Below are positions 31,278 to 64,000 of a stretch of DNA of 64,000 nucleotides, one piece after another. A program made the translations under genes and the position numbers. The notes beneath the pieces are model-generated. The model searched no databases and was not told where the DNA came from. It worked only from the letters and a program-made list of their open reading frames with translations. The stretch comes from Lytechinus pictus (lineage: Eukaryota): assembly GCF_037042905.1 (NCBI RefSeq), contig NC_087250.1, forward strand, positions 19,594,001 through 19,658,000. Direction: 5' to 3'. Positions within the stretch are counted from its first letter, which is position 1. Each line of letters starts with the position of its first letter.

Positions 31278-31520
31278 CACTGCAAAAACTCCAGTGTTGA
31301 TTTAACACCAGCCCGGAATCTATATTATGTCCTCACCAGAGATGTATTGAAATAACACCAGCTTGGAATCAAACCGATGCTGTCTTGATACTAATCGGTG
31401 TTGTATAAACACCTATCTGGTGTTAGACCAAAACGAAATTGGTGTTGTTTAACACTTCTCTGATGTGGACATATATAGATTCCGGGCTGGTGTTAAGTCA
31501 ACACCAGAGTTTTTGCAGTG
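31278..31520. mobile_element. CACTG-terminated (CMC/EnSpm-like) MITE; relatives at 48352-48539, 55179-55420, 55473-55706
   Basis: ta|CACTGCAAAAACTCC...GAGTTTTTGCAGTG|ta with internal AACACC repeats. Confidence 0.75.
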
Positions 31521-31887
31521 TATTGTTATAACATTTACTACAATCATGAATGACAATGATGACTTATTTCCTTCTAATCCTTATAACATTCATATGATAA
31601 CTTGCCAATTAAGACATATCACGTCTCAGTCGGTCTATGCGTCAAGACATTCTTGTTTTATCTATTAAGATGCATGAAATGATCATCATATTTTACCAAC
31701 CTTTTTTACAAACCGAATTTGATATTCAGACTACCCTAATGGATCGATGGCCGGATTCACCGGTTAACTCTGTTTTGAATTTTGTGTTCCTTTGAGAGAG
31801 AGAGAGAAAAAAAAGTTTGTCGGTTCTAATATGATCTTCATTCATCATTAATCTTGTTTAAGTCTCAGTTCAGTTAAATTGGTAGCA

Positions 31888-32036: not shown

Positions 32037-35000
32037 CTGCAATTGAAAACGAATTAGAAAATATAAATGATTAGTTGTTAACTCCTAAGGCGGAGCCAGA
32101 ATATTTTGATAAGGGGGGGGGGGGGAGGTGGGGCAAGTTGAGCCGAAGGTAACTTCATATAAATATGCATATATTAATACATAGGCCTATATGTATTTAA
32201 GTATAGGGGTATTTAGAGTTTCACTAAGCAAACGACTTCTAATTACATTCTTCCTTTTTATTTCTTTTTTCTTTCTCGCTCCTTTTCTCTTTATTCTCAC
32301 TACTAAAAAAATCATTTATTTTTTCTTGTAACGTATATTTTTTTCATTAACCAAAAAATAAAACAACAAATTAGGCTGCTATTCCAATTACAATAAATAG
32401 ACTACGTTATCAGATAATTTTCGTCACTTGATAAAGAGTTGCAGCGGCACTCGAAAGCTCGTGAACTTGTAAGCTAGTGAACACTTTTTGCGAGAGTGAT
32501 CACGAATTCCCTTGTTGACCATATTAGATTGCGAGACAAATGAATACCCTGTAGCGATTATTACAATTACCTCCTTTGACACCAAGAAAGCAGGCACATG
32601 GGAACGATTTATTTTCCCTGGGGGTGCTGATGTGAATTTGAGTTGACCCCCCCCCCACTAAAAAAAAAAGAGTTTCACTACAAAATGGAGGTCAAATTGG
32701 TCCAGAGAAATTTGAAAGGCAAAAACAAACAAACAAAACAAGGTTCCCAATATTCAAATGCTTACAACTTTTTTTTTATTTGTCCGATTGTTCTCAAACT
32801 TTCGTTGATCGGTTTCTTTGATTTTTCTGTTTTCACACAAGCTATCTTATTCCAAAGGTTTCATTCTCCTTTAAGAAATGAACTAAAAAAAATATAAGTT
32901 TATATAAACGCGTCATCAGGGCCGGGGCTCCATCTAATATCGACCTATCATCCAGGGGCGGGGCGGGGCGGGGCGGGAGACCAAATGCAAACCCTAGTCT
33001 GCTGTGCAAAGCTTTCACTCGAGTTAAGGGTCTGAATGTGCAGCCCACTCATGCCTTGTGTATTGAAGGCCATCTTGCTCAGAATTGAAACTGCATTATG
33101 TGCTAGTCTTTGCGTGGAGACACACTTGCAGATCAAAGTTTCAATCAGGGTCTGTGCCTGCAGACTAGGCATACCCCTACATGTAGCCCATATTCATCCA
33201 CTTCCCACAAGCCCCCCACATAAAACCAACATATTTGAATCTATGAGTGTTAAAATAAATATAAATAATAATAATAAAAGAGGGTATGTATGTGGAGCGT
33301 TGTGGCCCAGTGGATTAGTCTTCGGACTTTGAAACAGAGGGTCGTGGGTTCTAATCCCAGCCATGGCGTAATTTCCTTCGGCAAGAAACTGATCCTTAAT
33401 GTGCTGCACTCAACCCAGGTGAGGTAAATGGGTACCGATAGAAAGTAAATCCTTAAAAAGCTGTGTGCGCTATAAACGCTTAGCTTAGCCGGGTAATATA
33501 CATTGTAGGAGCGCCTTGGGCACCTAACAAGGTGGATATGTGCGCAATATAAATACCTTATATTATTATTATTATTATCAAGCGCATAACAACTAATGAA
33601 GTTCTGTATGCGTTTTACAATTTTGAATGAACACAATATGAATATACAAAAACACAGAAAAATTATTCATCAATGGTAACAATAATATGAACTGAATTTA
33701 ATTTATTTTCATACGTCACGTAATGTGTAACAAAATATAACACAATACAAGAAATACATTTGATTATAATACAGAAGATTATGACTCTAGCAATAAATGA
33801 AAGTGAAATGTAAAAGAACCTGCATAAAAAGCAGAGCTTGTAATGTCTGCAGGTTCCTTATATACAGTGCGTATCAAAAAACGGGACAGTTTTGAAAAGT
33901 CTATCAAAATTTTGTTTCAAATTATGATGTCTATATTTTGTTGTTCATAGATAATCTGAAGTCTTATCTTTCAAATGCCATTAAAAAATATCAGTTTTGT
34001 TCATGCTTGAGCGAACACGGAACACTTTTGTGAGGGGTTAAAAAAGGCTTGCGCAAAACAGCAGAAAATGAGAAAATACTGACTGCTTGCTAATCAGCAA
34101 ATTTCCTTATAATATTTTTATTATCTTTGCCATAATTTTCGAATTATGCCATCAAAATCCATTTACAAATCTATTCATTTACTTAAATTGTTTTGTTGGT
34201 GTTTTTCAAATATGGTATCTTTTAGCAAATTCAGAATGTTTTTTCATAAGTAAAAACAAATGAAAAAATTGTCAACCCAAGAAAGGGGATTCGTATTGTT
34301 AATGGGATAGCTTGTAATTTGATCAAATCCTTTTATTGTGGGCTGCAAAGGTTTTGGTGCCTTTGAAAGACATGAATTCTTCTGTTAGAATTAATATTGT
34401 CCTGTCAAGCACAAAATTTGACTTGTTCAAGGAATCAATGTCCCCTTGACAATAGGATTCATGTCTTTCAAATGCACCATAACCTTTGTTGCACATAATA
34501 AAAGGATATGAATAAATTACAAGCTCTTCCATTGATAATGGATATCTCCTTGCTTAGGTTGACAATATTTTTTTGTTACTTATGAAAGAATATTCAATGC
34601 TAAAAGATAACATATTTAAATGCAACAAGGTGGTTTGCGAACCAAAAATCTCGCCTGATTTCGCGATAATTAAAATATGCAATATAATCTTTTGACCCCT
34701 AGACGACCTTTGACCCCATAATCCTCATGGATACTCATGTAGTATTACCCAAGAATCATATGTGCCAAGTATGAACATGATTGATGCAGAAATAACGAAA
34801 TCAGAGCAAGTTGAACAAAAACTTAAAAAAAGGATGGACATGACCACATATCATTTGACCTTTTGACCCCTAGACGACCTTTGACCTCATCATCCTCATG
34901 AACAGATATGTAAAATTATCAAATGATAATATTTACCAAGTATGAACATAATTGATGTAGAAATAAAGAAATGAGAGCAAATTGAATAAAAACTAGCAAA

Positions 35001-36198: not shown

Positions 36199-39100
36199 CA
36201 TTATCATCATCACCATCATCATCATCACCATCATCATCACCATCATCACAATCACTATCGTCATCATCACGATCATCATCATTATCATCACCACCACCAC
36301 TATCATTATCAGTATCATCACTATTATCATCATTACTATCATCATCATCACAATCACCTTCATCATCATCATCATCATCTGTTACCATCATTATCAGCAT
36401 CTTTGGTAGGGCCATGCAGCTCATGTATAACACTGCACCTGACTAATGAAGTAATTAAGGTATAATAAAGAATATTTATGATTACATACACAAGTGCTTG
36501 TATTCAGATCTGGGCCCGTATTCTGAAGTCAGGTTTAACTTAGACTCAGGTTTAAAGTTGTGGTTTAAGTATGGATAGCCAATTGTTACATAAATCACTA
36601 ACAGTAGAGATATCATATTTCAGCTCATTTGGCTCTTAAATCATTCATAGCTGTGTAGGAAGTATAAATAGATAATCGTCTTCACCGTCGATGAATCAGG
36701 AAAGAGCACAGTAAACATAAGAAACATACAACTTAATAAAACAATTTGACACTTTTGGCTTCAAATAATTTTAGCACAGAGTTAGACCACGGTCTAAGTT
36801 AAACCTGACTTCAGAATACGGACCCTGGGGTTTAACTAAGACCATGGTCTACCTCTGAGCTAAATTATGGGAAGCCAATGACCTGCTCATTTGTACCTCT
36901 ATACTGTTAGATATTACGTCACCATTTGCTACCCATAATTAAACTGCAACTTTAGACCAGAGTTTAAATTATAGCCGGCTTCAGAATACTGGCCTTAAGG
37001 ATAAGAGACCTACCGAATTCACAGTTATTGCCGATAAACCCATACATGCAGGCACACGAATCATTATTGCAAGTACCTCCATTCAGACACGCATCATCAC
37101 CATCGCAGATATCTGTAAAAAAAACAAAAAAAAAACAAATAAATAAAGAAAAAGAAAATAAAAACAAAACAAACACATATCATTATGACACGCTGATCAA
37201 TTCAGATCAGTATTACGATATGATCTGAATATCATAGTGTACAGAAGCGATCAGTGGTTTTACTACATTAAAAAGACTAACGAACGTAGAGGGCGTCAAA
37301 ACTTTGCAGTGTTGACCTCCTGTACGTTCAATGATACTGCCCATACTGAAAATATACTAGCCAATTAGGAAAAATAGTTTATTAACGAAATTATTTTGGA
37401 TGTAAGAGGGATCATATACCACGGGCATTAATCAGTGACGTCGTGAGGGGGGGGGGGGGGGGGAGGGGAGATGGAACAACAGATCATCCCAATGCTGAAT
37501 AGGATCTTACATGCTTCAATACATTTGATTCCCGAGATTATCCAGTAGCCGCTTTCGCAGCCACAGAAGTAGGACCCGTATGTGTTGTTGCAAACTCCGT
37601 GTGATAGATCGCATGGAAACGGGTCCGACAAACATTCGTCAACATCTACATATTAAAAAAAAAAACAGATATAGAATTGTAGTGAGTAGTTGTCAACGAA
37701 CGTAGAGGGCGTCACATCTATTGCACAGTGTTGACACCCTCTACGATTGTCGGTAGTGGCGGGGAAATCCTGCTGAAAAGTCTACTTTCACAATTTCATT
37801 TTATTCATTGATTGATAAGAATTTACTTAATTTCATTGGTGTCGATCCAAGAGGGGAATCTATTGTTCAAAGGGGATGATCTGTTGTTTCATCCCCCTGA
37901 ATAGTATGACGTCATGGATCGACACCAGTGCTTCGTTTTAAAGCTAAATTACAGTAGTTGCAGTAAAACACTAATTTCGTGAGAAAGTCTGTAAAACCAA
38001 GGTTAAGTATGACTTTATCATCGTGGATCTAGATCTGTTACAGTTACATAAACTGAACTTTGTGAAATCATAAAATCTAAGCTGAAATACGATCACACTG
38101 AAGATCGCCAACACAGATAGACACATGTGGGACAGTGTATTATTATTGCTGGAATAAAGACCCGACGGAAGTGCCCGAATCCGCGCTTATTTTGCTTATT
38201 TCTCAGCAATTACACAATTTCTTCCAGAACCCTTTGGCACATATTTTTTATTCATACAAACAGACACTTGGGTGGTCATTATATTAGATTCTGTAAAAAT
38301 TAATTTTGAGATCATTACCAGAACTGGAATTTACCTTTAAGTTCAACAATAAAATCACATTTTTTTTTAATGCTAAGGATTTACTTCATTTCAAAGTCAA
38401 CAATAAAATCACAATTATTCTACGTGCATGAAAATATATGTTTGTAAATTTGTATGACATTCCTACCATGAATATGTAAAAGGGATTTTCTTTTCAGGTA
38501 TGATTAATATTTCAATGAGAATGATGTTGTGTGTTAATCATCAAGCTGGGATGTGTTCCTTATTGCTTACGGTAATATTGAGAAAAGATTATACTTATAT
38601 TATGTAGTATACGCTTGGCAATTGAGTCTAGGAACTCTTGTTGAAATGCTCCCCAGGGAGTGGAAAGGTGCATATATTGTATGCGGTCATGCCAGGATCC
38701 GATAACCGGGGTAATGTAAAGCACTAAGAGACGTCGTTCCAATGTACTATATAAAAGCGGATTATTATCATTATTACTTTTGTTCTTGAAATGTGGAAAT
38801 TAAATCAGATCAAATAACAAAAAATCCTTTCACACGCTTCAATCAATCGGAAATGTTTGTGTTACGGGTAACCAGGATAATGTGTAAGTATATAAAACAT
38901 ACCGAGTTCGCATCGTGTGCCGTTCAAAGTGGGTGTGCAGATACACCTAGCTTCAGTCTCGTGATTGACACAGGTACCTCCCCCTTCACAGGTCCACATG
39001 CAGCAATAATCAACTGAGAAATTAGTCACAGGTAAAAGAAAAAGTGAGAGAAGAGCAATAGAGATAGGCAGACACAAAGAGAGAGGGGAGAGAGAGTGTG

Positions 39101-42100
39101 TGTGTGTGTGTGATAGAGTAGAGAAAAAAGTAATGGAGATGTGTATGTGTGTGCGAGAAAGACAGAGCGAAAGAGGGAGAGTAAAAATAGGGAGGGCAAG
39201 AGGCGGAGAGAATGTGGGTGTGTGGGAGGGAGAATGTGTGAGAGGGAAAGAAAGAGTAGAAATCAGGGGGAGGGGAGAGAGAGGGGGGGAGAGAGAGTGT
39301 GTGTGTGAAAGAGAGAGGAGAAAAATAATAAAGGGAAGTGAATGTGTAGGAGGGTGTGTATGTGTGTGAAAGAGGAATAATAATGATAAAAATCCATATA
39401 CAAATACGAGATCGAAAGGAGGTATATATATATATGTATATATATATATATTTATATATATATGGATTTGTGGTTGTGCGCGCGTGGGTTCGCGATTGTG
39501 TGTGTTAATATGTCTGCGAAAGATGCAGATCGAGGAACAAGAGATGAGGGAGGGATCGAGAAAGGGGGGGGTGGGAAAGATAATTTGCACTTGAGAGTCT
39601 GTGACACTGTGTGTGTGCGCGCGCATAAGTCTGGGTTTTGTGTTTGTGTGTTGGCTTTATTATAACTTCCCTTTTGTTCTGAAATGTGAGTGGAATAATG
39701 GAACTCTTCAATGATATACATTTATTCATTATTTATTTTGCACCAATAACTGCTAAAAAGGTCTAAGTGGATCCGCGCCTCCCTCCCGCGCACTTCCGCC
39801 CGTGAAGGACGGATTTGAGTCCTTTCTTAAGAGTTCTGATTGATCCAATCAACCTCAACTAGGCCTAGATAAAAAACCCAGATCACAATATTTCCTATTT
39901 TGCACAATTTTCCTTAATAAACAAAAAGCAGACCCCTGGATTGTCAATGATGAATGGACGAGTATGTACATCGATCAAATCTTGAAAGAAATGAACAAAC
40001 ATGCATTTTAGATGTTGGATTTTCTGGTTCCGTGGTTCAGTTCAGTTCTATAATTCACATATTATATACAAGCATTTTTAATTGGTTGACATGGGTATAA
40101 CATAACATATCATGAAATGAAATAAATGGTTCTTGAGACCAATATGAGTTGAAACACAATAAGAATTTGAATCCGTGAAGAATGGAGAGGGCTAAGTTGA
40201 AAGCATAGCTTGTGAGTTACAGGCCCCAGAGGAGAATATAAAAAATTGGTAAGGCTAGGATATTATCAAGAAAATAAAAAATCAAAAAAAGTAGTTAATA
40301 TAAGTAATGAACCAGTTGGCTTATACACATCTGTAGCTCGCCCTAAAGGAAGAATAATAGTTTTGAGGGAGACATGGTAGTAGAAGATAAAAATAGAATT
40401 GGAGTGCTATGTATAGATGTCTGCTGCTGCAGCCTGAACTTCATAATCATCCAGAAAAAAAAGTTTAAATTTATGTTTGAAAATAATCAATGAAGTGGTG
40501 GTGGGTGATTGGATCAATCGCATCTCTTTATAAGATGGTACCCTGGAATCCTTACCAAATTCGGTATAAACAATGTCCAATCCCATCACGAGATCTATGT
40601 CCAAGACCCCTCCCCCTTTTTTCTGCAGCTCACTCGCATAAGCAACCTCTTCTCCGGATGTTAAATTGATGGCTCCGAGTCCTTTGCGCTCTATGTCGCC
40701 AAAGTACATGACGTCACCAAACTTTCGGATAACTCTGATCCGGTACACTTGCGACGTTGAGTTGAAGTGAACGCGACGGTCGGTGCCATTAAAGTCTACC
40801 GATTCAATCACACCTTGTGCCGTAAACCAGTATATTCTACATTCTGTAAAGGAGAGATGTAAGCCAAGATTAAAGAACTTCATCTAAAAACGCCCATTAG
40901 AAGAAAAAAAAATAATGTACTTTTTTGCTAATATACATTTTATATCTAATTAAAGCACATCAAATAAATAAGGACCATGCAAGTCAATTGTTACATCTAT
41001 TATATTTCTCCAGAATGTTTCACTCAGCGAGCATTTAACAAGGCAGACGCGATAAAGAGCTGTATAGAGCTACAGGGGCTAGAAGTCCACATAGAGGACA
41101 TGGATAAGATGAGTAGCGGTATAGCAAAATTGGGCAGCGTTTGCTCCTGTTTTTCTTCCAAAAGTGTGAACTATAATCACTTAACATTTTACCATCACTT
41201 CCTTTGAGATCCCCTGATACATCACATTCTCCATTACCTGCAGATCAAAGGAATGCATCATAACTTAGTTCTCAGGAAAGCTCCCACGGTGTTGGGGACA
41301 GGTCTGTGTTCTAGAACTTCAAGAACGTGGCCGCGGTGGACGTAGCCCCGGTAGCAAGCCGTCGATGGATTAATTATTTTAGGAAATTCGAAAAACGGAC
41401 GTTGTAAGAAAACTCTTTGTTCAGATGGGAGCGACATTAAAATTTGATTTGTTGAAGGGTTGTTTGAAAACAAGTGATGTTACTAACGTTATAAACTGTT
41501 GGAAATGTGATGGATAGATGTTACTAACAGAGGAAATGGTTTCTAGAAGGTTGTTGGACAGCCAATAATATCAGGGTGATATTATGTGGTTGGTAATATA
41601 CATTTTATATCTAATTAAAGCGCATCAAATAAATAAGGACGACTGTGCAAGATCTCCAGACTAGTTTCCGACCCAAGTTGTCCTGCTTGCCATGCACCTG
41701 CGGAAACTGTCTTTCACTTTGTTAGTGAATGCATAGCCTATACCCATCTTAGAAATAATCTTCTGAATCATTTTCCAGAGGATGCCATTAAAGTGCTCTC
41801 AAGCTTTTCAAATACAGACTCCTATCTTCATGTTGCAAGAACCAGACTTATCCTCCTTGGTGTCATTGGCAATGTCTCGTATCAGTTTCCTGACTTTCAT
41901 CCTGTTACTCTTCAATTTGTGTTTGATATACATTTCTCAAGACAGCGCCTTGTTGATCAAGCGGCTGCAAACAGTGACTAATAGCTCATTATTTTTACCA
42001 TGCTGTACTGCAACTAAAGGCTTGCAGTTCTCCGGTGAACGGAGGAATTCAACACAGAAGAAGAAGAAGGTAAGGTCGGAAAAACTGTGTTTGGATTTTG

Positions 42101-45100
42101 AATGGATGACAGGTGACGATGAGATCGTTAGAAACTAATTTGATTTGGTGAGTGTTTAGGCAACCAATACTGTTTAGGTGTTGACAAGGCTGGAAACTGA
42201 AGCTAGGTCGGAAAGTTGATGAAACAACAAGTTTCCATCGTATTATTGTCTACGTTTCCCAACAACAGAGCAGCAACGTCATAACTGATGGTTCAGCAAA
42301 TATTGGACCAGAATTACCACACGACATTTGATCGTTGTTGCATGACAACGATGGACCGACATTGCAATTATTGTTGGACTGAAGATATATGCGCGTGATG
42401 TACGACTATCGATTCTCTAAAGTTGCCTGCAAACGTTGAGGCAGCGTAAAAATCACAACGTTCAAAATTTTCCCTACGTTACGGGGGAACTCTTGATCAC
42501 TTTTGCGTTTAAGCCCCCATCACACTTATTCCGAATCAAGCAGAATTGGCCTGAATGAAAGGACTATTGTTTGACCACCAGTTGGTCATTTAAATCTACT
42601 TCGAACACCGTTCGAAAATATCCCTCGAATGTTTTGAACATGACCGAAGGTTCATGACCAAAACCTTCGGGACGGCCAAAAGAAATGACAAAAATATTTC
42701 GAATGCACTCAGAATGCAGTCAGGATATTTAGAATGCCCCTAGAATGTCCAAGAACGTAGCACGAATTATCAATCTGACTCCATTGCGGTTCATTTTGAC
42801 TAGTGTATGATGATACACGTGGTCAATTTACTGAATTTCAACTCCAGTTTGGTGAATTCATAAGTTCCTCCCAAAAATTTCTAGATTTTTTGAATATTTT
42901 TTCTTTCCAGCTTCTGCTTGATTCCTGCTGATTCCGAACAAGTGTGATGGGGGCTTAACTAATGAATGTTCTGCAAGTCTCTGATGGCTAAAGGAGTCTG
43001 AGCGAAAATAAGCGAAAAGTTGCTCGAATCATACTGCGGAGAGCATAATGGAAGAGAAGTTATTTCCTGGGGAGTGTCAGATGAAGGTCGAGTGTAACGC
43101 ATCATTTCTGAACAGGCCTACATCGAACGATTTTCCGTTGAACCTGATATATACTATAAAAAAACCCAACATATTAATTTTAACCAATAAGATCGCACTG
43201 GCTTCGGTCATCCGCCCGCGGGGTGGACTCGAACCCACGGTCGTTGGTTCGACAGGCAGACGCTTTACCGACTGAGCCAACTTCGCTCTCAACTGCGAAG
43301 TAATGATGAATTCTAAGTCCACAATGCTACGCGACCAAGTAGAAATACTGACGAGTAGTTCGCACACGTACACATCCAGCATTCAGCACTTTTAGAAATG
43401 TACGTCCACATAGTGGACTGGTACGAGCTGATGACGTCATTTTTTGGCGTTCCATATGCCTCAGGTCCTCACACACGTCCACTATCGGAATCGAGAACCC
43501 CGCCACATCCGTTTTGCGGTTCTCCTAAATCATAGACGACGTGCACGTGAGTGACGTCATTTTAACCGCTCAAGCCCAGCATGAAGATCAACCTTTCCCT
43601 TTTAAAACACAGTTTTCAGTGACTTTTCACAAAATTAATGTAAGTTGTACGATGCATTCTGTTTATCATATTTGAAATTGCTTTCTGATCTCTAAAATAT
43701 ACATCGATATATATCCTAACTTACGGAGCCCGAGAGGGGACATGCATGAACATGTTTTTTTAATAAGTCGTTCCCACCACTTATAAGTTGTTCCCACCAC
43801 TTATAAGTCGTTACCACCACTTATAAGTCGTTCCCACCACTTATAAGTCGTTCCCACCACTTATAAGTCGTTCCCACCACTTATAAGTCGTTACCACCAC
43901 TTATAAGTCGTTCCCACCACTTATAAGTCGTTCCCACCACTTATAAGTCGTTCCCACCACTTATAAGTCGTTACCACCACTTATAAGTCGTTCCCACCAC
44001 TTATAAGTCGTTCCCACCACTTATTTATAACTACCACGTGATGGCATATAATTATGAAAAAGGGAGCAGTACGCCGCGCCCGCTAACTCCAGGAAGCTCC
44101 GACGCCGACGCCGAAGCTCTCAAACCAAGCCTGGCGAAAATCATCGAAATCGATGGATATAGCGCCAACGTCAACAGACCCGGGTACCCAACATTATAAC
44201 AACAACAAGAAGAAGACCGGCAGGAAGTTGGTTGGATATTCGATATTCGATATTCAAACTGTGAAGTTGGTTTGATATTCAGGTTCGATATTCAAACGCG
44301 TGTGAAGTTGGACCAATATTCGATATTCGATATTCAAAAATTAGGGGTCTTGAAAGCTAACTAGGGGGTTAAACAGGTGCAGCACGTCTCGGGCAACCAT
44401 AACAACACTGTCACTGGCCTGCCCTAGTAAGAGGACATTCAGGGGACAAACGTCAGTGAATGAAAGGGCAGAAAATTGTAATTTTTTTTTTCTTTTCGAG
44501 GGGCCCCCACATCCCGACGGCCTACCCAGGGCAACCATGTATCCTATCTTGTAGAACTGGACTCGGGCAACCAGATAAACACTAGCTTGACCCGGCGCAT
44601 GCACAATTTTCTGGCTTGCTTCGCTCGCTGGCTACTTTTTCAAAATTAATTATTCCACATTTGCTTTGGTGTGCTGCCTCAACATATTTTGTTTATTATC
44701 CGCAACTGCGTTGAACTTAATATAATATGTGGTGTATGTACCCGCGATTTGATAAAAAATGGCCATCTGCAATGTTTAAAAATATCACGAGGATCCGGGG
44801 GCTCCGCCCCAGACCAGTGCATGGCGCCACCGAATGGGGAGGCCCCATTGAGCCCCCCCGAAATTTGAAGGAAAAAAGTGTATATAATTCTCCAAAAATG
44901 TTTTTAGTTCTTTAAATTTTAACAATTTTCTCATCCATTCACCGTCACAGCATTTAGCTCCCAACAATTTTAGTCACTAACATAAATCTTTCAGGCCATT
45001 ATATTAAATTCAAAATGTAGCTCGCGCTACGCGCTCGCAGTTATTAATGATTATCTTTTCACATGGGGCTTAAAAATCCAATATTATTAGAGTTTTCATT

Positions 45101-48100
45101 ATTCGTTTTAGCAAGATACATTATCCTGCGAATTCATAATTTTCATAAATGATATATTTTCAGCGAATTAGATAGCCATTCAGTTCATAATTAAAAAAAA
45201 AGCTTAGAACGGCCAGGTATCATCCCGGATATCAAAAATTTTCGGCTCGCGCTTCGCGCTCGCACTATTTATTTGGTGAGATATCATCTTCATAACCCAA
45301 TTAATGGAAACAGCTGATCCTTAACAGGTCCCTTTTTCATTCAGTAGGGACTGCATATAAAATAAAATTAACTCGCAACTCTCGCTCGATTTTTTTTAAA
45401 ATGTGTGTCATCCCCCCGGCCCAAAAATGTTTGTTTGCCTCATCCTAGGTTAAAAACCCTGGTGCCGTCATTGCCCCGGACCCGAACCGCATAGCACTGC
45501 CCCCCCCCAAAAAAAAAAGTTCTACAACCGAGAACAAAAAAGAAATAATAAAACGAAAGAAAGAAAAGGAAGATGAAAGATATATGATGTCAATCTCAAA
45601 ATTACAGGTGATTTTTTTTCGCTCACTTCGCTCGCTCGAGACTTATTATTAAGCAAGTATTTGCTGCGTGCGCCATGGTGTGCCCCATCCTTTTTTGTTC
45701 TAATCTCGCATTGAGCTTCGCCCTAATGTTCAGGGCATAATCATAAAATATCCTGGTCATACAATATGATGACCCCTCCATTCTCTTTCCCTCCCTTTCC
45801 CCCTCCTTTTCTTTCCTATCTCTCCCTTTCGCTTCTCTCTCTTTTATTTTTGTCTTCTCTCTTTCTTTGTTGTTTTTTACTCTACCCATTGGCGGCAACC
45901 CTAACGGATGGGGGGACCGTGGTTCCCCATGCTTGAAATAGCCCGTATTCCTTGTTAATTTACCCCCCCCCAATGTGCATGCGCTGGGTCAAGCTAGTGT
46001 GTATCTGGTTGCCCGAGTCCAGTTCTAAATGTTAGGATACGTGGTAACCCTGGCTAGGCCGTCGGGATATCCCTCGGGGCTTCTCGAAAAAATAGTTTAT
46101 TTTAATTGAAAAAATGCGATAAATAGCCCTTTATTCCCTTTAATATTGTTAATTTGAGCCCCTAAATGTGCATGCACCGGGTCAAGTTAGTGCTTATATT
46201 GTTGCCCAAGTCCTGTTCTAGAAGATAGGATACGTGGTTACCCTTGCTAGGCCGTCGGGATATCCCTGGAGGCCCCTTGAAAAAAAAAATTATTGAAAAA
46301 ATGCGATAAATAGCCCTTTATTCCCCTTAATTTTGTTAATTTGAGCCCCCTAAATGTGCATGCGCCGGGTCAAGCTAGTGCTTATCTTATTGCCCGAGTC
46401 GATTTCTACAAGATAGGATACATGGTTGCCCTGGGTAGGCCGTCGGGATGTGGGGGCCCCTCGAAAAGAAAAATAAAAAAATAACAATTTTCTGCCCTTT
46501 TATTCACTGACGTTTGTCCCCTGAATGTCCTCTTACTAGGGCAGGCCAGTGACAGTGTTGTTATGGTTGCCCGAGACGTGCTGCACCTGTTTAACCCCCT
46601 AGTTAGCTTTCAAGACCCCTAATTTTTTAATATCGAATATCGAATATTGGTCCAACTTCACACGCGTTTGAATATCGAACCTGAATTTCAAACCAACTTC
46701 ACAGTTTGAATATCGAATATCCAACCAACCAACTTCCTGCCGGTCTTCTTCTTGTTGTTGTTATAATGTTGGGTACCCGGGTCTGTTGACGTTGGCGCTA
46801 TATCCATCGATTTCGATGATTTTCGCCAGGCTTGGTTTGAGAGCTTCGGCGTCGGCGTCGGAGCTTCCTGGAGTTAGCGGGCGCGGCGTACTGCTCCCTT
46901 CTTCATAATTATATGCCATCACGTGGTAGTTATAAATAAGTGGTGGGAACGACTTATAAGTGGTGGGAACGACTTATAAGTGGTGTGAACGACTTATAAG
47001 TGGTGGGAACGACTTATAAGTGGTGGTAACGACTTATAAGTGGTGGGAACGACTTAAAAGTGGTGGGAACGACTTATAAGTGGTGGGAACGACTTATAAG
47101 TGGTGGGAACGACTTATAAGTGGTGGTAACGACTTATAAGTGGTGGAAAACGACTTATAAGTGGTGGGAACGACTTATAAGTGGTGGGAACAACTTATAA
47201 GTGGTGGTAACGACTTATAAGTGGTGGGAACGACTTATTAAAAAAAAATGTTCATGCATGTCCCCTCTCGGGCTCCGTACTAACTCGCGTAAAAAGGAAT
47301 CAAAGCAAGTGAAAGGGCACATGTGCAGACGTTGCACCTTCGCATCACCCGACCGGGTCGCCAGGCGATGGTGCGCCAGATCTTCCGGGTCGGGCAGCGT
47401 GTCATGACCCGCTGCTTATCGCGCTGTTTCATGTGGACGTACGTACACGTACAAGTCGAGTGAAATCTAAAGTATTCGCATCTGTAGTGAACAAGGGCAG
47501 ACGACGACGTTGACTTGAACGATCAGATGACTGCTACGTCGTTCACGTTCACTGCTCCTAAAACTCTCTATTATCGACAAGTGACGACAAGACTCTGTGA
47601 CCCAGGGGATTTTGATCTTGACTGACCATGCAGCATCGATGTTCATCCATGCATGGATCAGTGCACAATAGGGTGTGTGTGTTTTGAGTAGATGTGTGTG
47701 GGTGCTGTGCGTGTTACAGTGGGATGTTTGTGTGTGTATGTGTTATATGTGGGGTGAGTAGATGGGTGTGCGAATGTGAATGTCATTGTTCGTGTGTGGG
47801 TGCATTGCTAGTGTGTGTGTACAACCCACCTCTCAATACTAAGGACCTATCGTGCTGTGGTACATTTGGCCAGAATTGCTTCGATGAGCGGCAAAAGAAA
47901 TATGGAAATACAAATACGCACTCCATCGGTAATAATCAATTTCGGCTTTCAGATGCTATCCTTTCAAAGCGTTTTGGCACGTTTTATCTTATTCTCATTC
48001 TACGTGTAATGTCATACTTGCCAAGCAATCAATCAAGCATATATATTTTTTTCTCTCTCCTGCTCTCCCCCTTTTATCGTTCTCTCTCCCTCTCTCGTCC

Positions 48101-51100
48101 AGCACTCCTAACTTTGCAGATCTCCCCTGCCACTCGGGGCGCGTATTTTTTTATTTACACCACTGCTCCGCCAAAATATTGAAAAACCCCACAGAAACGG
48201 CTCGCGCAAGAGTCTAACAAGTTGACCACACACGTTTCGTCGTGCACATCTGAATTCGTTCATAATAGTCATTCAAAACAAACCTTATGATTTCAATATA
48301 GATACATAGCTTAGTGTTTAGTTTGTTGGGGTCTTATCCGCTTGTATTATACACAGCAAAAACTGTGGTTTTAACCGGTGTACATAGAGGACCACACCAG
48401 TTATTTTACACCGGTGTTAAATTGGTGGTGTTAGTTTTACACCTATTGTTATTACACCACCAATGGTTGTTACATTTACACTCTTTGGTGTTATGTTCAA
48501 TCTCTAGGGTGTTATTTTAACACCACAGTTTTTACAGTGTACATGTGTAGGAATCGTATGAGCATTTTGTTCGTAGTTATGGCACCTCCAAACATTCAGA
48601 TGCTTGAAACAAAGAACTATAGTGTTCATAGCTGCAGCTAGACTAGATTTCTTTTCTCCGTCTAAATTTTTCACCTCTCTGATCTTCAGCACTCACCCTC
48701 TCTCTCGCTCTCTCCATTGATTTTCCTTCTGTATTTGGGCGACAGTGGCCTCTGCATTGCTCTCTTGCTTTTTGCCCAATTCAAAATACCTTTATTTTGT
48801 TGTCATTAAATTAGGCACATTTGTCGAAAAAATGTGTATTTATTAATATGTACACCTTGATACTTTTGCTTTTCTCTAGCTATTTATAAAGCACATAGGG
48901 ACTGATTCTGCAGTGATATGCGCTCTAGAAATATGATTTTATATCATTATAATAATATTATTATTATTATCATTATTATTATTATTATCATTATTATTAG
49001 TATTATTATTACTATTATTATTATAATTATCATCATCATCATCATTATTATTATTATCATTATTATTATTATTATTATTTTCATTATTTTTATTTGGCAG
49101 ATAAGATCTTCTCTCTACCTCGATCTCTATTCTTTCTTTCTTTCTCATTTTTGTTTAAAAGGAAAGTCTACCCCAAAATAACTTTTTTTTCAACAGGACA
49201 AAAAATCAGATTGACAGAACTAAAAAGTTTGAGGGAAATCGGACAAGTAATAAGAATGTTATGAATTTTTAATGAAATGAATATCACTAGTATATTGCCA
49301 ATTTACTGACATCATATGTGCACGACTTACCATTTATTTTATCTACTAGTTCATTACTACAAAATTTAACTTTTTCCGACATTTTGATTTCCTCAAACCT
49401 TTTTCCAGGATATCGAGATGATAGATATGTTTTTTCATGTTTTCTGAATTTTTTTTTGCAGTATAAATACATTAAATTAAATGGTTAGTGGTGCATCCAT
49501 GACTTCATAAAATCGGCGATTTGTCTTGTGATTTCCCCATTTTTTCATATGATTAAAATTTCATAACTTTCCTTCAGTTGTCAAATTTTCCTCAAACGTT
49601 TTATGTTTTGTTCATCTGATTTTTCTGCTTGGGTAGACTCTTCTTTTATTCTCCCCTCTTGCTTAAGCCCCATTTCTTTTGATTTTTTTCTTCACAATAT
49701 AATTTTCTTCCAAATCAGCATGCTTGTACTGTTGTATCTCATCTCACCCTTTCTCTCTATTTCTTCGCACTCCCCACACCCCCTTCCCCTCTCTTTTCGG
49801 GCTCTTTTCATCTCAAGTTCTCAGTCATTATTTTATCACAGCTACTACTGAACTTTGTTCAACAGGTGCACTACCAAGCATTGCTGCAAATGTATACTCT
49901 GTGATTTTGAAAAGTATTTCAGGTTGGGAAAACCTCAGAACAAATCAATACTAGATGGCCTATACTGTAGGAAAAGTTGCTATAAAATGCCCTCACACTG
50001 CTCTCTTTCAGCACTGAAAGGAGAATGAAACTCTTGGAGCAAGTTAGCTTTTGTGAAAGCAGAAAAATCAAAGAATAAGATCAACAAAAGTTTGAGTAAA
50101 ATAGGACTAGCAATAGAAGAGTTATGAGCATTTGAATGTCGAGATCACTAATGCTATGGAGATCCTCCCATTGGCAATGCGACCAAGATCTATGATGTCA
50201 CAGATGAACAACTCTCCCCTTTTGGACACTGAAAATATAACACAAAACATCTCTTTTTGCTCATTCTAATCATATATGACAAACGATTCATCAATGATAT
50301 AATGTTGTGAAACCTCTGTACTTGTCCTCTCATAAAGAGAACACCTCACCTTGTGATAGACTCTATAAAAGTGAGAATATAAGTGAAATAAGTACTAAAG
50401 TAATGAGGGAGTTGCACGTGTGTGACATCACAGATCTTGGTCGCATTGCCAATGGGAGGATCTACATGGCATTAGTGATCTCAATATTCAAATGCTCATA
50501 ACTTTCTTATTATTTATTCAATCTTCCTCAAACTTTCAACAATATGTTTCTTTGATTTTTCTCTTTGATATGGATTCAGCTGGTTTCAAGGGTTTCATTC
50601 TCCTTTAATAATTGGCTCAACATCACTCTTCGTCACTAACCTTAGACAATATCTTTTACATATTAATTTTCAATATAAATTACATATCAGCTCTGTTACA
50701 TACTCAAATGGTTTTTAGAACACTTTTCCGTAATATCAACAATAACCCTAAGAAAATAATGTAGTAGCGGGATGACTTCAGGTGGTTTTGGATATATACT
50801 CATTCAACTTTTATACAAATCTCACGCGGGAATTCCGAGAGCTTTGCTTGAGCGCACAGATTAGACTTGCCCGCGAGCCGTTTCTTTCGTATTTCTGGGA
50901 ATTTTGGCGGAGCAGTGGTGTAAATAAAAAATACTCTTCCGGCGTGTACTTTTAAGAAACTTGCGTCCCATAATGAATAAGCGCAATAGGTGTTTGCAAA
51001 AACGTTTGTTTGCAATTGAACGAAAATCAACCAAAATATGCATTTAATCAAAGGACGTACTCTTGATAGTTGGGCTTACCCTTTATTTAGAATTAAACGA

Positions 51101-54100
51101 ATATTTTTTACAGCTCCCTATTTATATATATTGTCTCCTAGTCTAGATCTAAACGTTAAGTCATCCCACAAAGAATGCACACACTGTCTTAGTGGAAGGA
51201 AGTAAAAAGACGCCGTGTGTATACTGTGAGTGATTGTAGGGTTTAATAATAATAACTACCAACGTCAAGATCATCGACGGATCCAGGGGGGGCACATCTA
51301 GCCCGTGCCCCCCCCCACCCCCTTGAGAGGCACCAATCTTTTAGTTAAAAATGCGTGAAATGTATAGGAATGTGAGGACTGTTTTTTTTATTGTCAACTT
51401 GTTCTCATGGAACAAAATGACATCGATTTGATAGTAGAGACCCTTTTTTTGCATGCATGTCAATTATTTCCTGGAATGGCCTCGACTTGGTGGTGAAGAT
51501 TTTATCATTATTAATTAAGTATTATTATTTTTTTTTTTGGGGGGGGTCGTTGTCAAAGCTTTCTTGTACAAAATGCCCCCTTTTTGGGATATCCTGGATC
51601 CGCCCATAGGTCCAGATCTCGACTACTTGCCTGCGTAATCTAGGTCTATATCGAGGATGTTGGCTTCTTCCCCAACGTGGACGATCTCTTCCCTTGTGTC
51701 GGGGTCGTTGCCTATCCATGAATCAGTGTCCCTGGACCAAATTTTCACTCTATCCGTCCATAAAACCCGTCTAAATAAAGATAACAATGACATAGAAAAC
51801 TTTGCTAATATGGAGTTTTCGCATACGCTACAAATTCAAGAACACGGTACTATATTCAAGATGCCCATCAAAGGACAATGAGCAGCTGGGAGGTCTTTGT
51901 CTAAAAGTGGTAAACCGCTACAACAGATACGTCCTAAGCACTGGCGTAAATCCCGGGGGGGGGGATGGGGGGGGGGGGATATATCCCCCCCACTTTTCGA
52001 GGAGGGGGGGGGGATGGCCTGTACAAACACCCCCCCCCCCACTTTTTACGAAAGAAATGAAAAAAAAATCACAAGAGATAATTGTTTTATTGGTGAAATT
52101 TCTTCCAAAAATACTGCTTAACAAATAAAATAATATTATTGAATCATAAAATGCAAATAAAGAGCCAGTTCACCATTTCCAAACGAAATACTTATGTCCT
52201 TATTATAACATTGAAGAGAACCCCCCGTTTCTTCAAATTCATCAATGTTGGGGTCTTTGGGAAGGGATTAAGATGGAATGACAATTTTTTTTAACCATTA
52301 AACCATCATGGGGTAAAAAAGATGATAATATTGGAGGGGTATTTGCCATATGGACATACAGTGGCGTAACTACGGGGGACATGGGGGGCACATCACCCCC
52401 CCCCCCCCATCGGCTGACCAAAAAAAAAAAAACGGGGAAAGGGGGAAAGGAGAAAAGAGGGAGAAAGGAAGAGAAACATAGTGGGAAAGAAGAAAATATT
52501 ATTCATTATAATGTTATATTATAATTATGTTAAGTTACATTACATAAGAAACATTTTTATCATAACTTTATGAAACATAATTTGCCCAGGGCCTACGTCT
52601 TCATTGTTCCTGGTGCTCGCATTGTCTGTTTAACGAGATATATAATCATGTTGTACTAAAACATCCCGTTTTCAAGTCAATATAAACCAAATATATTTCC
52701 TAGCACTTGAGTTATCATTGTTTTATGTAGTGACATGTGCTTCTTTTTTATGACTCAAAAGTGATTGCCCCATGTTAAGGTCTTCGTATATATGAAACAT
52801 TTCCTGTCCGTGATTACGTTCGCATTAGTGGATTGGTGAGATATGTCTGCTCTTCATGAATTCCTAAGATCAGTCCTTAAAATGTCCCTTCTTCTGATCT
52901 GAATATCAAAAATTTTCAGCTCGCGCTTCGCGCTCGCATCATTTGGTTAATGAAATACGTATGGTCCTAGTTAATTCCTACAAAGAAACCTTAGAATGCC
53001 CCACTTCAGGTCTGAAATATCTAAGTTTTCAGCTCGCGCTTCGCGCTCGCATTGTTAAGCGAGACAGGTACCTATCATGATTACACAAATTGGATTATAA
53101 TGTCCCTTTTTAGGTGTGAATAAAAAAAAAATTCAGCTCGCGCTTCGCGCTCGCATTATTTGATCAGTGAGATACATATCCGTTTAATGACATTGTCCTT
53201 AAAATGTCTCTACTAGGTCACTCACTCAGTCATTCAAAAATTTTGCTGGTGCCCCCCCCCCCCAATGCCGTGACCCACAGTACGCCACTGTGGACATATC
53301 GATGACAATTCCTTGCATATCTAAAAACATGATTGCAAAAAAATGCCAAAATATTTCAGTCATCCCCCCACCCATCAACACTGATTTACGCCAGTGGTCC
53401 TAAGTTTACCAGCTGACGAAAAATTACAGATTTGTCGTTTGCCCCGAGTCCAGGACGAAATTGCCGTTTCGATTCACAAATTTTCGACAAATACCTCTTG
53501 TTTTGTAATGAAGGGCATTTTTGACAAAACATTTTCTCTGCTCTTGAAAGCGTTCTGGGTCGCCGAGCAAAAGCCCCATAATAGTACCACACCAACGAAC
53601 GTAGAGGGCAGCAACACACCTCAATTGCATTGGAGTCAATTCTTTTTATTTCATTTCCATTCAAAAAACATAATACAAAGTAATATAAAGTAATACAAAT
53701 CAAGTACAATTTTACAGAAGGGCATTCTTACTTCGTAAAAAAAAACAAAACAGAAAAAACAGTATAATATAGAGCATAAATGGAAATGAGGGGGAAATGA
53801 GGAGTCATACCATGGAAGCAGACAAGGTTAAACCATGGACCTACTAGCAAATGGTTAAACACATAACTTATTTGTCCCATGGAGTCTACATTTCTTGAAT
53901 AGGTAGTTTTCGCATTCGCTATGGGGAAACTCCCTACAACGCATTGATTTTTTTGAAATTGCAATTAAATTCACAATGGAGAGCTGAGAGTCTTTTATCT
54001 AAAGTTGGTGGACTGGGACAGTACTTCATCCGAAGATTTACACCCGACGAGCAATTGCAAATATGTCGTTGTCCAGAGTCAAGAGATCCCGATGCTGTCC

Positions 54101-57100
54101 CGGTAGTTTGATAAGTGTTTAAGAATTCGATATAGATATAGATCTAAGCCTATAAGACCCATGTAACTTTGTAAGGGTACCGGTAATTTGAGGATGCTAT
54201 TTCATTCTGGGCAACGTGAATGCTAACGATCCACGCGCATGCGTACTTTTATTCCGAAGACGCAAGTCATGAATATTTATAATGTTGGTCCAGAACTGTT
54301 GTGGGAAAAAAAATTCGCGTCCCGGTCCACCAACGAAAGCCTCTCAGCTCTCTATTGTGATTTGACTTGCATTTTCAAAGCAATTGGTGCGTTGTAGAAA
54401 GTTTCCCCGTAGTAAATTCGAAAAGTCCGGACTTATACAGTCGGTGCGGCTATACAGAAAACGATGTGCTTCTTCATGATTGAAATTTGTCATTTCTCAG
54501 TGCAGACCGGAACCTTTGCAGTTGAGCTTTAAGAGAGTTGTGAGATGGACATTCTACTTAATGGCCCGTATTCTGAGTCGGGTTTAAAGTTGTGGTTTAA
54601 GTATGGATAGCCAATTGTTACAAAAATCACTAACAGTAGAGATATCATATTTCAGCTCATTTGGCTCTCAAATCATTCATAATTGTCTAAAAAGTATCAT
54701 TAGATGATTGTCTTCACCATAGAAGAATCAGGAAAGAGCACAGTAAATATAAGAAACATATAACTTAATAAAAAAATTGACACTTTTGGCTTCCCGTAAT
54801 TTTAGCACAGAGTTAGACCGTGGTCTGAGTTAAACCTGACTTCAGAATACGGGCCTATGTGTTGGAAAACTGTTCAAATCCGATTTTACTTTACAGAGTT
54901 TTCGATCAACAACGCACGGCGGATTCAAATGGCCTTCATGACAATGGACAACTAAATGTCTTTAGGGAAAATCGGTAAATCCAAACTATAGTTTTATCTT
55001 GGACTCTGTACAAACGACATATTTATATGCACAATTTGCGGCAGCTCCGAAACGTAGGAGGAAACTGCTTTTTCTGTTCAACAAAATTCGACAAAGACCT
55101 CTGAACCGTTCATTGTCATTTGGACTGACATTTTCAATAATTTACTGATGACATCTTGTAAGCGTGAGAGAGGTAATACACTGCAAAAACTCCGGTGTTG
55201 ATTTAACACCAGCCCGGAATCTATATCTGTCCACACCAGAGAAGTATTGAAATAACACCAGTTTGGAATCAAACCGATGCTGGTTTAATATTAATTAGTG
55301 TTATATAAACACATATCTGGTGTTAGACCAAAACCAAACTGGTGTTGTTTAACACTTCTCTGGTGTGGACATATATAGATTCCGGGCTGGTGATAAATCA
55401 ACACCGGAGTTTTTGCAGTGTATGAATGAAGTTAGATGAATAAGTTTCTCTGATCCTTATAGAACAGTATTACACTGCAAAAAACGCCGGCGTTAATTTA
55501 ACACCAGCCTGGTATCGGTCCAGATCGGAGGTTAACCAACACCGGTTTGGCGTTAGGCTTAACCAACACCAATTTGGCATTTAAGCAAAACCAAGATGTT
55601 AAACCAATATCGGTCTGATTCTTAACTGGTGTTGTTTCTCTGGTATTTTCCGATATACATGTAGATATCGGGATGGTGTTAAATCAACACCGGTGTTTTT
55701 GCAGTATAGCATAGTATAGCATGTTGGGACTACATGACACTACACATTAGTTTATTTTATATTGTATAGAGATGATACAAATATACCAGGCGTTTCATTT
55801 GAAAGCATAGTGGGAATTATTAATCCTCGGTTGGACTGGCAAAACTACTATATTTCCCTCGGGGCTTCGCCCCTCGGGAAAAATAGTAATTGCCAGACCA
55901 ACCTCGGATAAATAATTCCATTATACTTTCTCAAAGCCTGACATATTTGTTTATTGTATACTAAAAGTCGGGTCGTAAGGTGTGCGGTGGCCTTAAACAT
56001 CCCCAGGTCTTAGAGAATGACTGTATATATTGAACATTTAATAAACAATTCACACCTTTGCTTTCCAGAATGTTTGAAGCCTTCCTGTTTTGATTTCTTA
56101 CTTTTTATTTATTTATTTATTATTATTATTATTTATTTTTTTTGGGGGACGCGTCACATTTTAACGCTTATACCTGGTGATTTTGTCGTATTTAACGCCG
56201 CCCGCGTAATATGTGCTCCGATCGTATAGTCCTTTTATCACTGCGGCATTTGGTCCTCCGTCAGTGACGTCAGCTTTGCGAAGTTCGGGATAAGCAATAA
56301 ACCATTGATTAGAAAAGTACAGTGTATGGCAAGATTCGTCTAGATCCATCGTCCACACAGCTGCGGGAGAAAAAAAGACCGAAGTGAGAAACAACGAACA
56401 GCAATTAACACCTTGCAGTGTTGACGCCATCTATGTATATGTTTGTAAGTATTTGCTCGGGCTATTCTATCATAAACTCACATTTTCTCTTTAGCAATCA
56501 TTGAAAGGCACATTATTAAGATTCTAGAATTGCTTGTTTTATTTCTGCAACAGGCCCCTGTGTTAGTTACAGCGGAAGTAGACAATCATGCACCACCACC
56601 ACCACCATCATCGTGATCATGATCATGATCATCACCACCACCACCATCATCATCATCACCACCACCACCACCATCATCCTCATCATCACCACCGCCACCA
56701 CCACCACCATCATTATCATCATGCATCATCACCACCACCACAATCATCATCGTCATCATCATCACCACCACCACCACCATCATCATCACCACCACCATCA
56801 TCATCATCATCCCCACCACCACCATCATCATCATCACCACCACCACCACCACCACCATCATCATCACCACCACCACCACCATCATCATCACCACCACCAC
56901 CACCATCATCGTCATCACCACCATCACCATCATCATCACCCTTATCATCATCATCACCACTATACCACAACCATCACTACCACCACCATCATCACCACCA
57001 CCACTACCACCATCATCATCACCACCGCCAACGTCTTCTTCCTTCTCCTCCTCCTTTTCATCAATGAAGTCACAATTGTCTTCATAATGGTCATGCCACG

Positions 57101-63468: not shown

Positions 63469-63759
63469 TTACAAAGAGTTACGATTGATCCGATCAACCA
63501 CAACTATGGAGAGCCAGCAACGTCAACATCTAAATTGCATGCCTTAAAAAAAGGTCTAGATATGCATATTCAATCATTCATTCATCATTTTCTTCAAATT
63601 CAGTTTGTTCTCTTTGTTTACAAAGGACGTTGTGCAAAAATTTCCTGTAGAAAAAAAATTATGACATAGTTGGATTTCCATACAGTTAAGGTTGATCCGA
63701 TCAATCGTAACTAAGACAGGGCCCTGAATATAATTCACCAGTAAGACCAATGAGACCAG

Positions 63760-63931: not shown

Positions 63932-64000
63932 CTGGAACAATATCAAGACCGGTATAAAATTTAAGTTACAACTCAAGGCCAATTTGATTTTTAACTGTAT

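What the first reader, a model, noticed from the sequence alone, without database searches (positions are those of the whole stretch)
43716..47285. 3.56-kb foldback transposon with about 900-bp TIRs, 20-bp minisatellite arms and IS3EU-type ends inside an intron
Seen: exact termini TACGGAGCCC/GGGCTCCGTA, an exact 6-bp TSD CTAACT, and near-identical arms of about 884 and 925 bp. Each arm has an outer 20-bp tandem array (13 vs 15 units) and an inner unique domain; the middle has no ORF. Known: TAY..RTA ends with 6-bp TSDs are described for the poorly studied IS3EU superfamily, and the outer-tandem/inner-unique layout recalls sea urchin TU and Drosophila FB foldback elements. Inference: this is a young non-autonomous IS3EU family, the arrays may be transposase-binding sites, and an autonomous partner may exist elsewhere in the genome.
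Basis: partly seen in the sequence, partly recalled or inferred. Interest (0 to 1): 0.7.

Follow-up and report, generated by a model that had tools for sequence, protein, structure and literature searches.

The report
Gene-less IS3EU-type foldback transposon
This is a real, recently inserted, gene-less jumping element in an intron of an invertebrate gene; its ends match the little-studied IS3EU group, and the 20-base repeat in its arms resembles a palindrome near the ends of related elements from other hosts, a candidate docking site for the enzyme that moves them.

Summary
Observation confirmed: 43722-47279, exact 6-bp duplication, arms of 884/925 bp, 13 versus 15 20-bp units, no gene, inside a predicted 10.8-kb intron. 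IS3EU-type ends are supported: the first 21 bases match a curated transposase-encoding IS3EU family at 17 of 21, and 11 of 26 two-ended elements with the same terminal motif in metagenome contigs have exact 6-bp duplications, none 3-5 or 7-10 bp. New here: the 20-bp unit is an imperfect palindrome whose CGT-N4-ACG core is arrayed at 21-22-bp spacing inside relatives' ends (296 inside, 4 outside; 9 of 17 source groups): a candidate transposase-binding site, untested. Corrections: the inner domain is not unique (a ~190-bp repeat, three copies right, one chimeric copy left), and the middle is a nest of other repeats found in another context in public contigs, so a 3.56-kb family is not shown. No transposase was found; no genome was held. 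Earlier scan notes already report IS3EU foldbacks and an intact IS3EU in this genome (untested). Verdict: new variant of a known kind, modest interest.

The parts
43716..43721 (.). left 6-bp target-site duplication
   Evidence: identical to 47280-47285
43722..43762 (+). left terminal 41 bp with the bipartite IS3EU-type end motif in its first 23 bases
   Evidence: 40 of 41 identical to the right end; 17 of 21 identical to the start of IS3EU-2_PGr (compared by eye); degenerate form found at 122 ends in 120 metagenome loci
43764..44023 (+). left array, 13 x 20-bp imperfect palindrome; candidate transposase-binding sites
   Evidence: unit 14 of 20 self-complementary, core shared with relatives
44025..44215 (+). 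arm-specific CpG-rich segment, left copy (mirror at about 46745-46935)
   Evidence: CpG o/e 1.41 vs 0.77 for the window; held at about 99% by one contig of run X11, no cover of 44030-44159 in X12, X4, X2
44216..44605 (+). inner part of the left arm: short 39-41-bp repeats and one chimeric ~190-bp unit; shared with other repeats
   Evidence: a contig of X2 matches 44216-44558 (6 differences, 18 gap letters) and goes on outward with other sequence; deep related contigs in X4; of the last 94 bp the first 45 equal right unit R1 (45/45) and the last 49 fit R3 (47/49) better than R1 (44/49)
44606..45937 (.). non-coding middle: nest of other dispersed repeats
   Evidence: near-identical contigs of X11 at depth 25-34 against about 12 on the arm; X11 and X12 contigs match from 44605 exactly but carry other sequence to its left; pieces recur at 20.1-20.5 kb and 52.9-53.2 kb of the window
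44815..45473 (.). probable nested 659-bp MITE with decayed short inverted ends and an 8-bp duplication with one mismatch (hAT-like by duplication length; label from recalled knowledge)
   Evidence: flanks 44807-44814 and 45474-45481; contigs lacking 4 letters at 44818 restore the end symmetry
45938..46354 (-). two further ~190-bp units (R3, R2) that extend the right arm inward and have no partner on the left
   Evidence: TRF period 193 x 2.6 at 45952-46449; alignment
46355..46935 (-). inner part of the right arm, mirror of 44025-44605
   Evidence: 11 substitutions and 2 indels in 584 columns
46936..47237 (-). right array, 15 units (one of 21 bp)
47239..47279 (-). right terminal 41 bp
47280..47285 (.). 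right 6-bp target-site duplication
40844..51630 (-). predicted 10,787-bp GC-AG intron of a YWTD-propeller/EGF (LDL-receptor-like) gene that holds the element
   Evidence: no RNA evidence

Best explanation
A non-autonomous DNA transposon of the IS3EU/GingerRoot type that has taken on a foldback shape. Shown: ends, 6-bp duplication, arms, no gene. Inferred mechanism: an integrase-like DDE transposase supplied in trans by an autonomous IS3EU element recognises the terminal ~22-bp motif and loads, probably as dimers, on the palindromic 20-bp units that start about 42 bp inside each end; it cuts the ends and joins them to a target with a 6-bp stagger, whose repair gave the duplication. The long arms are secondary: as in Galileo, internal sequence (here pieces shared with other repeats) was copied from one end to the other and the two tandem arrays changed copy number by unequal exchange (13 vs 15 short units; 1 vs 3 long units, the single left one being a fusion of the first and third). 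The middle is a passenger, a piece of a more abundant composite repeat joined to the shortened left arm at 44605/44606. The insertion is recent and sits in an intron, probably near neutral.
For: Exact 6-bp duplication, about 1 in 2900 by chance. IS3EU in print: TA..TA ends, usually 6-bp duplications (PMC10045372); TAYGG..CCRTA in rust families that encode a transposase (PMC12730594). First 21 bases match IS3EU-2_PGr at 17 of 21 and the first ten match IS3EU-6_PSt at 9 of 10 (supplement rows). Of 26 two-ended elements (81-1291 bp) 11 have an exact and 13 an at most one-mismatch 6-bp duplication, none an exact one of 3-5 or 7-10 bp, 2 of 2 bp. CGT-N4-ACG: 296 in 30.2 kb inside the ends, 4 in 35.5 kb of flank; other gap lengths 3-9 inside; commonest spacings 21 and 22. 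For 25 distinct units outside the largest source group the ten outer letters match the window unit at 6.56 against 3.32 in shuffles, 0 of 2000 shuffles reaching it. Array change and recruitment of internal sequence into TIRs are documented for Galileo (PMC3573991 section 7), and transposase binding to TIR tandem repeats too (PMC3688188 abstract).
Against: No transposase linked: 0 of 54 inward frames (95 aa or more, from 21 unpaired ends, at most 14 per end) hit a transposase or integrase family; the relatives seen are MITE-sized. 13 of the 26 two-ended relatives have two or more mismatches at 6 bp, and two of the 11 exact ones look like the same site. The palindrome core was defined after seeing the data; 264 of the 296 hits come from one source group, whose outer letters match the window unit worse than shuffles (2.5 vs 3.5); 25 ends of another group, several with 6-bp duplications, have none, and 8 of 17 groups have none. 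The window's units have one degenerate half-site and a 20-bp, not 21-22-bp, period. No other copy with both ends and no empty site was seen (no genome; exact 23-mer scans empty).
Confidence: 0.8

Rival explanations
1. The ends are IS3EU-type, but the 3.56-kb form never moved as such: a longer or different family member inserted here, and the deletion, array collapse and capture of the middle happened on the spot. It is then a one-off rearranged copy, not a family. (Compatible with the best explanation on superfamily; differs on history.)
For: X11 (1335-bp contig, depth 24.8) and X12 (242-bp contig) match the middle exactly from 44605 but carry other sequence to the left; no listed piece spans the arm/middle junction; the middle is about 2-3 times deeper than the arm although the arm is present twice per element. 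The left long unit is a chimera.
Against: Contigs drop rare variants, 5761 pieces were not shown, the kind of run is not on record and depth is no copy number. The nested MITE boundary is spanned by a near-identical contig, so the nest predates this site.
Confidence: 0.45
2. The 20-bp arrays are not transposase sites: they are a minisatellite grown by slippage from one subterminal motif, or sites for a host DNA-binding protein or for the element's companion protein.
For: One source group with 6-bp duplications lacks the core entirely (0 in 25 ends); outer letters differ between families; copy number differs between the arms; the units can form hairpins (z -3.98 for three units as single-stranded DNA), which favours slippage.
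Against: The core is 87-fold denser inside than outside the ends, specific for a 4-base gap, begins mostly 39-55 bp from the terminus and recurs at about two helical turns in 9 of 17 source groups, as expected of a protein-binding array tied to the ends.
Confidence: 0.3
3. The element belongs to another superfamily: Tc1/mariner or pogo with a TA duplication and a chance 6-bp repeat outside it (a pogo-like fossil lies at 15.4-17.4 kb), or another 6-bp group (Ginger2, Polinton, hAT6).
For: Both ends are bordered by TA; DDE_1 and HTH_psq remnants in the window. Most foldbacks in print are MULE or P (PMC4079207).
Against: In relatives the duplication lies outside the TA in 11 of 26 cases; Ginger2 ends are TG..CA and Polinton ends AG.. 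(PMC6839031); MULE-like foldbacks have 8-10-bp duplications; the 21-base match is to curated IS3EU. hAT6 termini were not checked.
Confidence: 0.07
4. Assembly artefact: a fold-back chimeric read produced the inverted arms.
For: Long near-perfect inverted repeats can arise this way (general knowledge); no read spanning the whole element was seen.
Against: The arms differ at 11 substitutions and 2 indels, in array length and in long-unit number; an exact 6-bp duplication brackets them; the arm exists at about 99% in an independent run.
Confidence: 0.02

Closest known systems
IS3EU/GingerRoot superfamily (Repbase; PMC10045372 passages, PMC12730594 passages and supplement rows, PMC6839031 abstract, passages and section 21, Styx in PMC10853768 passages)
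   Same: TA..TA and TAYGG..CCRTA ends, 6-bp duplication, 17 of 21 terminal bases shared with IS3EU-2_PGr, non-coding derivatives and captured sequence (GingerRoot carries gene fragments).
   Different: TIRs in these papers are short (over 30 bp, 36 bp for Styx, 100-150 bp for GingerRoot); here about 0.9 kb with two tandem arrays. No transposase here. I saw no description of subterminal palindrome arrays for IS3EU in the passages read.
Galileo (P superfamily; PMC3573991 abstract and section 7, PMC3688188 abstract)
   Same: Long TIRs (to about 1.26 kb) that vary by ~210-bp internal tandem repeats and by recruitment of internal sequence; longest TIRs in gene-less copies; tandem repeats carry transposase-binding sites.
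   Different: P-type THAP transposase and other termini; here IS3EU-type ends, and binding is untested.
Foldback elements FB, Tetris, Tm1 and sea-urchin TU (PMC4079207 and PMC3169594 passages; TU seen only as a citation, its details recalled)
   Same: Modular arms with tandem outer domain, inner domain and non-coding variable middle.
   Different: 8-10-bp duplications and Mutator assignment for Tetris and Tm1; foldback is a shape reached by several superfamilies (PMC3169594), not a family.

Membership tests
IS3EU/GingerRoot | TA..TA (TAYGG..CCRTA) termini | tested here: met
   definition
IS3EU/GingerRoot | 6-bp target-site duplication | tested here: met
   exact here; 11 of 26 exact, 13 of 26 within one mismatch in two-ended relatives, no other length of 3-10 bp
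IS3EU/GingerRoot | terminal inverted repeats with similarity to curated families | tested here: met
   17 of 21 with IS3EU-2_PGr, 9 of 10 with IS3EU-6_PSt (by eye; 16 of 27 IS3EU rows of the supplement seen, first 400 letters only); no animal IS3EU consensus could be compared (Repbase/Dfam not available; no hit in the GingerRoot supplement text)
IS3EU/GingerRoot | IS3/integrase-like DDE transposase without HHCC, in the element or in an autonomous partner with the same ends | tested here: inconclusive
   element is non-coding; 0 of 54 frames beside relatives' ends hit a transposase family; no genome held
IS3EU/GingerRoot | several dispersed copies or an empty site (mobility) | tested here: inconclusive
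   only contigs of the inner left arm and middle were laid; termini and flanks were not
Foldback-type element (structural class) | long modular TIRs with tandem repeats of variable number | tested here: met
Foldback-type element (structural class) | non-coding middle of variable make-up | tested here: met
   (variability between copies inferred from contigs only)
Mutator-type foldbacks (FB, Tetris, Tm1) | 8-10-bp duplication | tested here: not met
   lengths 7-13 do not match; 0 of 26 relatives at 7-10 bp
Tc1/mariner-pogo | TA duplication directly outside the TIR | tested here: not met
   the TA is inside a 6-bp duplication here and in 11 of 26 relatives
Ginger2 / Polinton | TG..CA or AG.. termini with 6-bp duplication | tested here: not met
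   ends are TA..TA; definitions from PMC6839031

The most novel reading that the evidence does not exclude
The 20-bp palindrome with a CGT-N4-ACG core is the cognate binding site of one branch of IS3EU transposases (or of their companion protein), kept across distant animal hosts and spaced at two helical turns; this element amplifies it into 13-15-unit arrays, making it a foldback form of IS3EU with a ready-made substrate for the first biochemical study of how this superfamily recognises its ends.
Probability: 0.5. Interest if true: 0.55.

Novelty: new variant of a known kind. Interest (0 to 1): 0.36.

Why it matters
IS3EU structure and function are described as largely unexplored (PMC11934779). 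The element adds IS3EU to the superfamilies that produce foldback shapes, and the conserved, phased palindrome gives a concrete, testable prediction of what the transposase binds. As a single gene-less intronic insertion it has little biological weight by itself, and this scan has already noted larger IS3EU foldbacks and an intact IS3EU in the same genome.

Tried and rejected
No whole genome is held, so copy number, duplication tables for this family and the autonomous partner could not be searched. Exact terminal 23-mer: 0 in metagenome and viral contigs. Degenerate end patterns in viral contigs: 0, 2 and 0 loci; the two have no partner end and lie in coding, GC-rich DNA, taken as chance. Six prokaryote matches have no palindrome core, taken as background. 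Whole-element BLAST against the 120 loci hit only the terminal ~90 bp of three loci. Pfam on 54 inward frames: only host-type genes; L032 read in full, no partner end noticed. Longer records behind five loci were not held. Rfam: no match in 40000-52000. Scan notes by sequence or relatives: nothing; by words on subterminal palindromes: nothing on IS3EU. Sequencing runs: 12 found with shares of 0.07-0.26; 4 of 12 laid, on 44030-45950 only, so termini, flanks and the empty site stay untested; absence of cover at 44030-44159 in X12, X4, X2 and at 45850-45950 in X11, X12, X2 proves nothing. Literature: IS3EU 62 papers, 40 listed; GingerRoot 13; foldback + sea urchin + TU element 0; Strongylocentrotus + foldback + TU1 0; four-term foldback search 1; terminal 10-mer 35 papers, the 20 listed unrelated by title; IS3EU with foldback/subterminal terms 275 papers with any two terms, none of the 30 listed holding IS3EU (the other 245 not seen). 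The 2019 review on TE diversity was not held. Repbase and Dfam could not be searched, so a deposited family with this shape is not excluded. Rejected readings: TA-duplication mariner/pogo, Mutator-type foldback, assembly artefact, microhomology at the arm/middle junction (overlap is one base).
Full report
Observation. The element spans 43722-47279 (3558 bp). Among duplication lengths 2-13, only 2 and 6 match; the 6-mer CTAACT flanks both ends exactly, about 1 in 2900 by chance. The terminal decamer occurs only at these two places in the window. The terminal 41 bp agree at 40 positions; the arrays hold 13 and 15 units of 20 bp; the rest of the arms differ by 11 substitutions and two 3-bp indels in 584 columns. 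The longest open frame over the element is 121 aa and has no Pfam hit. Seven minus-strand exons join into one stop-free frame, which puts the element in a predicted GC-AG intron at 40844-51630 of a YWTD/EGF gene resembling LDL-receptor relatives. That the host is a sea urchin comes from earlier scan notes, not from a test of mine.

The inner domain is not unique. The right arm continues inward with two more ~190-bp units (45938-46354; period 193 x 2.6; alignment). The single left unit is a fusion: of its last 94 bp the first 45 equal the outermost right unit, the last 49 fit the innermost (47 of 49 against 44 and 42), the mark of a collapse from three units to one. On contigs of four public runs laid on 44030-45950 (4 of 12 runs found), run X11 holds the arm at about 99% (2 differences in 218 bp) at depth about 12, and the middle in near-identical pieces at depth 25-34. 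A 1335-bp contig of X11 and a 242-bp contig of X12 (same study) match the middle exactly from 44605 but carry other sequence to its left. A contig of X2 (another organism) matches 44216-44558 and goes on outward with other sequence, and X4 has very deep related contigs over parts of 44160-44614. So the inner arm and the middle are built of modules shared with other repeats. The middle includes a probable 659-bp MITE at 44815-45473 with an 8-bp duplication bearing one mismatch. Depth of contigs is no copy number and the run type of X11 and X12 is not on record, so these are hints on relative abundance only.

Superfamily. In print IS3EU families always have TA..TA ends and usually 6-bp duplications, and form one lineage with GingerRoot (PMC10045372, passages); rust families that encode a transposase end TAYGG..CCRTA (PMC12730594, passages). 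In that paper's supplement (16 of 27 IS3EU rows seen) IS3EU-2_PGr shares 17 of its first 21 bases with this element and IS3EU-6_PSt 9 of the first 10; most other rows share only the first five or six. Of 122 ends, 26 could be paired into elements of 81-1291 bp; 11 have an exact 6-bp duplication (two look like one site), 13 at most one mismatch, none an exact 3-5 or 7-10 bp, two an exact 2 bp; the other 13 have two or more mismatches. This places the TA inside the element and rejects a mariner/pogo reading, although a pogo-like fossil lies at 15.4-17.4 kb. The defining transposase was not found: none of 54 frames beside unpaired ends hit such a family, and no genome was held. Membership is therefore likely, on ends and duplication, not proven.

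The 20-bp unit. It is an imperfect palindrome (14 of 20 self-complementary) with a CGT-N4-ACC core. In the relatives, CGT-N4-ACG occurs 296 times in 30.2 kb inside the ends and 4 times in 35.5 kb of flank; gaps of 2, 3, 5, 6 or 7 bases give 3-9 inside; spacings of 21 and 22 bp dominate and the first copy lies mostly 39-55 bp from the terminus, against 47 here. By record-name prefix, 9 of 17 source groups carry it (groups need not be independent, and three empty ones look like chance bacterial matches). For the 25 distinct units outside the largest group, the ten outer letters match the window unit at 6.56 on average against 3.32 in shuffles (0 of 2000; best units 16 of 20). Against: the motif was defined after seeing the data; 264 of 296 hits come from one group whose outer letters match worse than shuffles (2.5 vs 3.5 over 102 distinct units); and a group of 25 ends with true 6-bp duplications has none. 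The best reading is a dimer-binding site tied to the ends in one branch of the superfamily, with family-specific outer letters; binding is inferred, by analogy with Galileo, whose TIR tandem repeats bind the transposase (PMC3688188, abstract).

Mechanism. Shown: boundaries, duplication, arms, arrays, lack of a gene, chimeric long unit. Inferred: mobilisation in trans by an integrase-like IS3EU transposase with a 6-bp stagger; loading on the palindrome arrays; growth of the arms by copying internal sequence from one end to the other and by array expansion and collapse, both described for Galileo (PMC3573991, section 7); capture of the middle or deletion into it. Whether the 3.56-kb form ever moved or was shaped in place is open (about even). 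Recent insertion is inferred from the perfect duplication and the ~1% differences between arms and to X11; arm identity is not a clock, since arms can be homogenised.

Comparison and novelty. It works like a Galileo/FB-type foldback and has the ends of an IS3EU. TIRs of IS3EU/GingerRoot in the papers read are 30-150 bp; foldbacks in print are mostly Mutator or P with 8-10-bp duplications for Tetris and Tm1. My searches found no paper describing an IS3EU foldback or an IS3EU subterminal palindrome, but only part of the hit lists was seen, subscription papers are missing, and Repbase and Dfam were not searchable; TU details are recalled, not read. Earlier notes of this scan report, on other DNA of this genome, a 24.8-kb IS3EU with an intact transposase and several IS3EU-type foldbacks; these are unchecked leads and I could not compare their ends with this element.

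Verdict. A real, young, gene-less IS3EU-type transposon of foldback shape: a new variant of a known kind. Its best contribution is the testable candidate binding site. Interest 0.36.

Noticed in passing
window 15412-17390 (+): Broken pogo-like transposase remnant: HTH_psq (E 9e-6) and DDE_1 (E 6e-22) in separate frames.
   Followed up: partly
window 36967-59941 (-): Exons of a YWTD-propeller/EGF (LDL-receptor-like) gene; the intron holding the element has a GC donor with a strong consensus.
   Followed up: partly
window 24907-25491 (+): Open frame of 194 aa with an ATG-led part of about 130 aa and a glycine/alanine-rich hydrophobic start; only a weak Pfam hit (E 0.005, below cut-off). Possibly a small single-exon gene.
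   Followed up: no
window 43184-43290 (-): tRNA-like stretch by eye, probably the head of a SINE; no Rfam match at gathering score.
   Followed up: no
window 7042-7230, 11893-12834, 31276-31523, 34205-34620, 36513-36994, 50014-50614, 55173-55708, 63747-63938: Many short palindromic MITE-like repeats, several in two or three copies within the window.
   Followed up: no
L001-L120 flanks: Target preference of the related ends: positions -6 and -1 are C/G in 70 and 65 of 113 distinct flanks, positions -5 to -2 are A/T in 77-85 of 113, a weak symmetric S-W-W-W-W-S pattern.
   Followed up: partly
L004, L063, L086, L105: Four ends from one source group share the same 12-bp flank, probably one insertion seen in several samples.
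   Followed up: no
L103: Related end followed by a different tandem array of about 10-20-bp units without the CGT-N4-ACG core, suggesting that other families use another repeated site.
   Followed up: no
window 45887-45937: A further MITE-like end abuts the innermost ~190-bp unit; the long units may belong to a separate repeat family captured into the arms.
   Followed up: no
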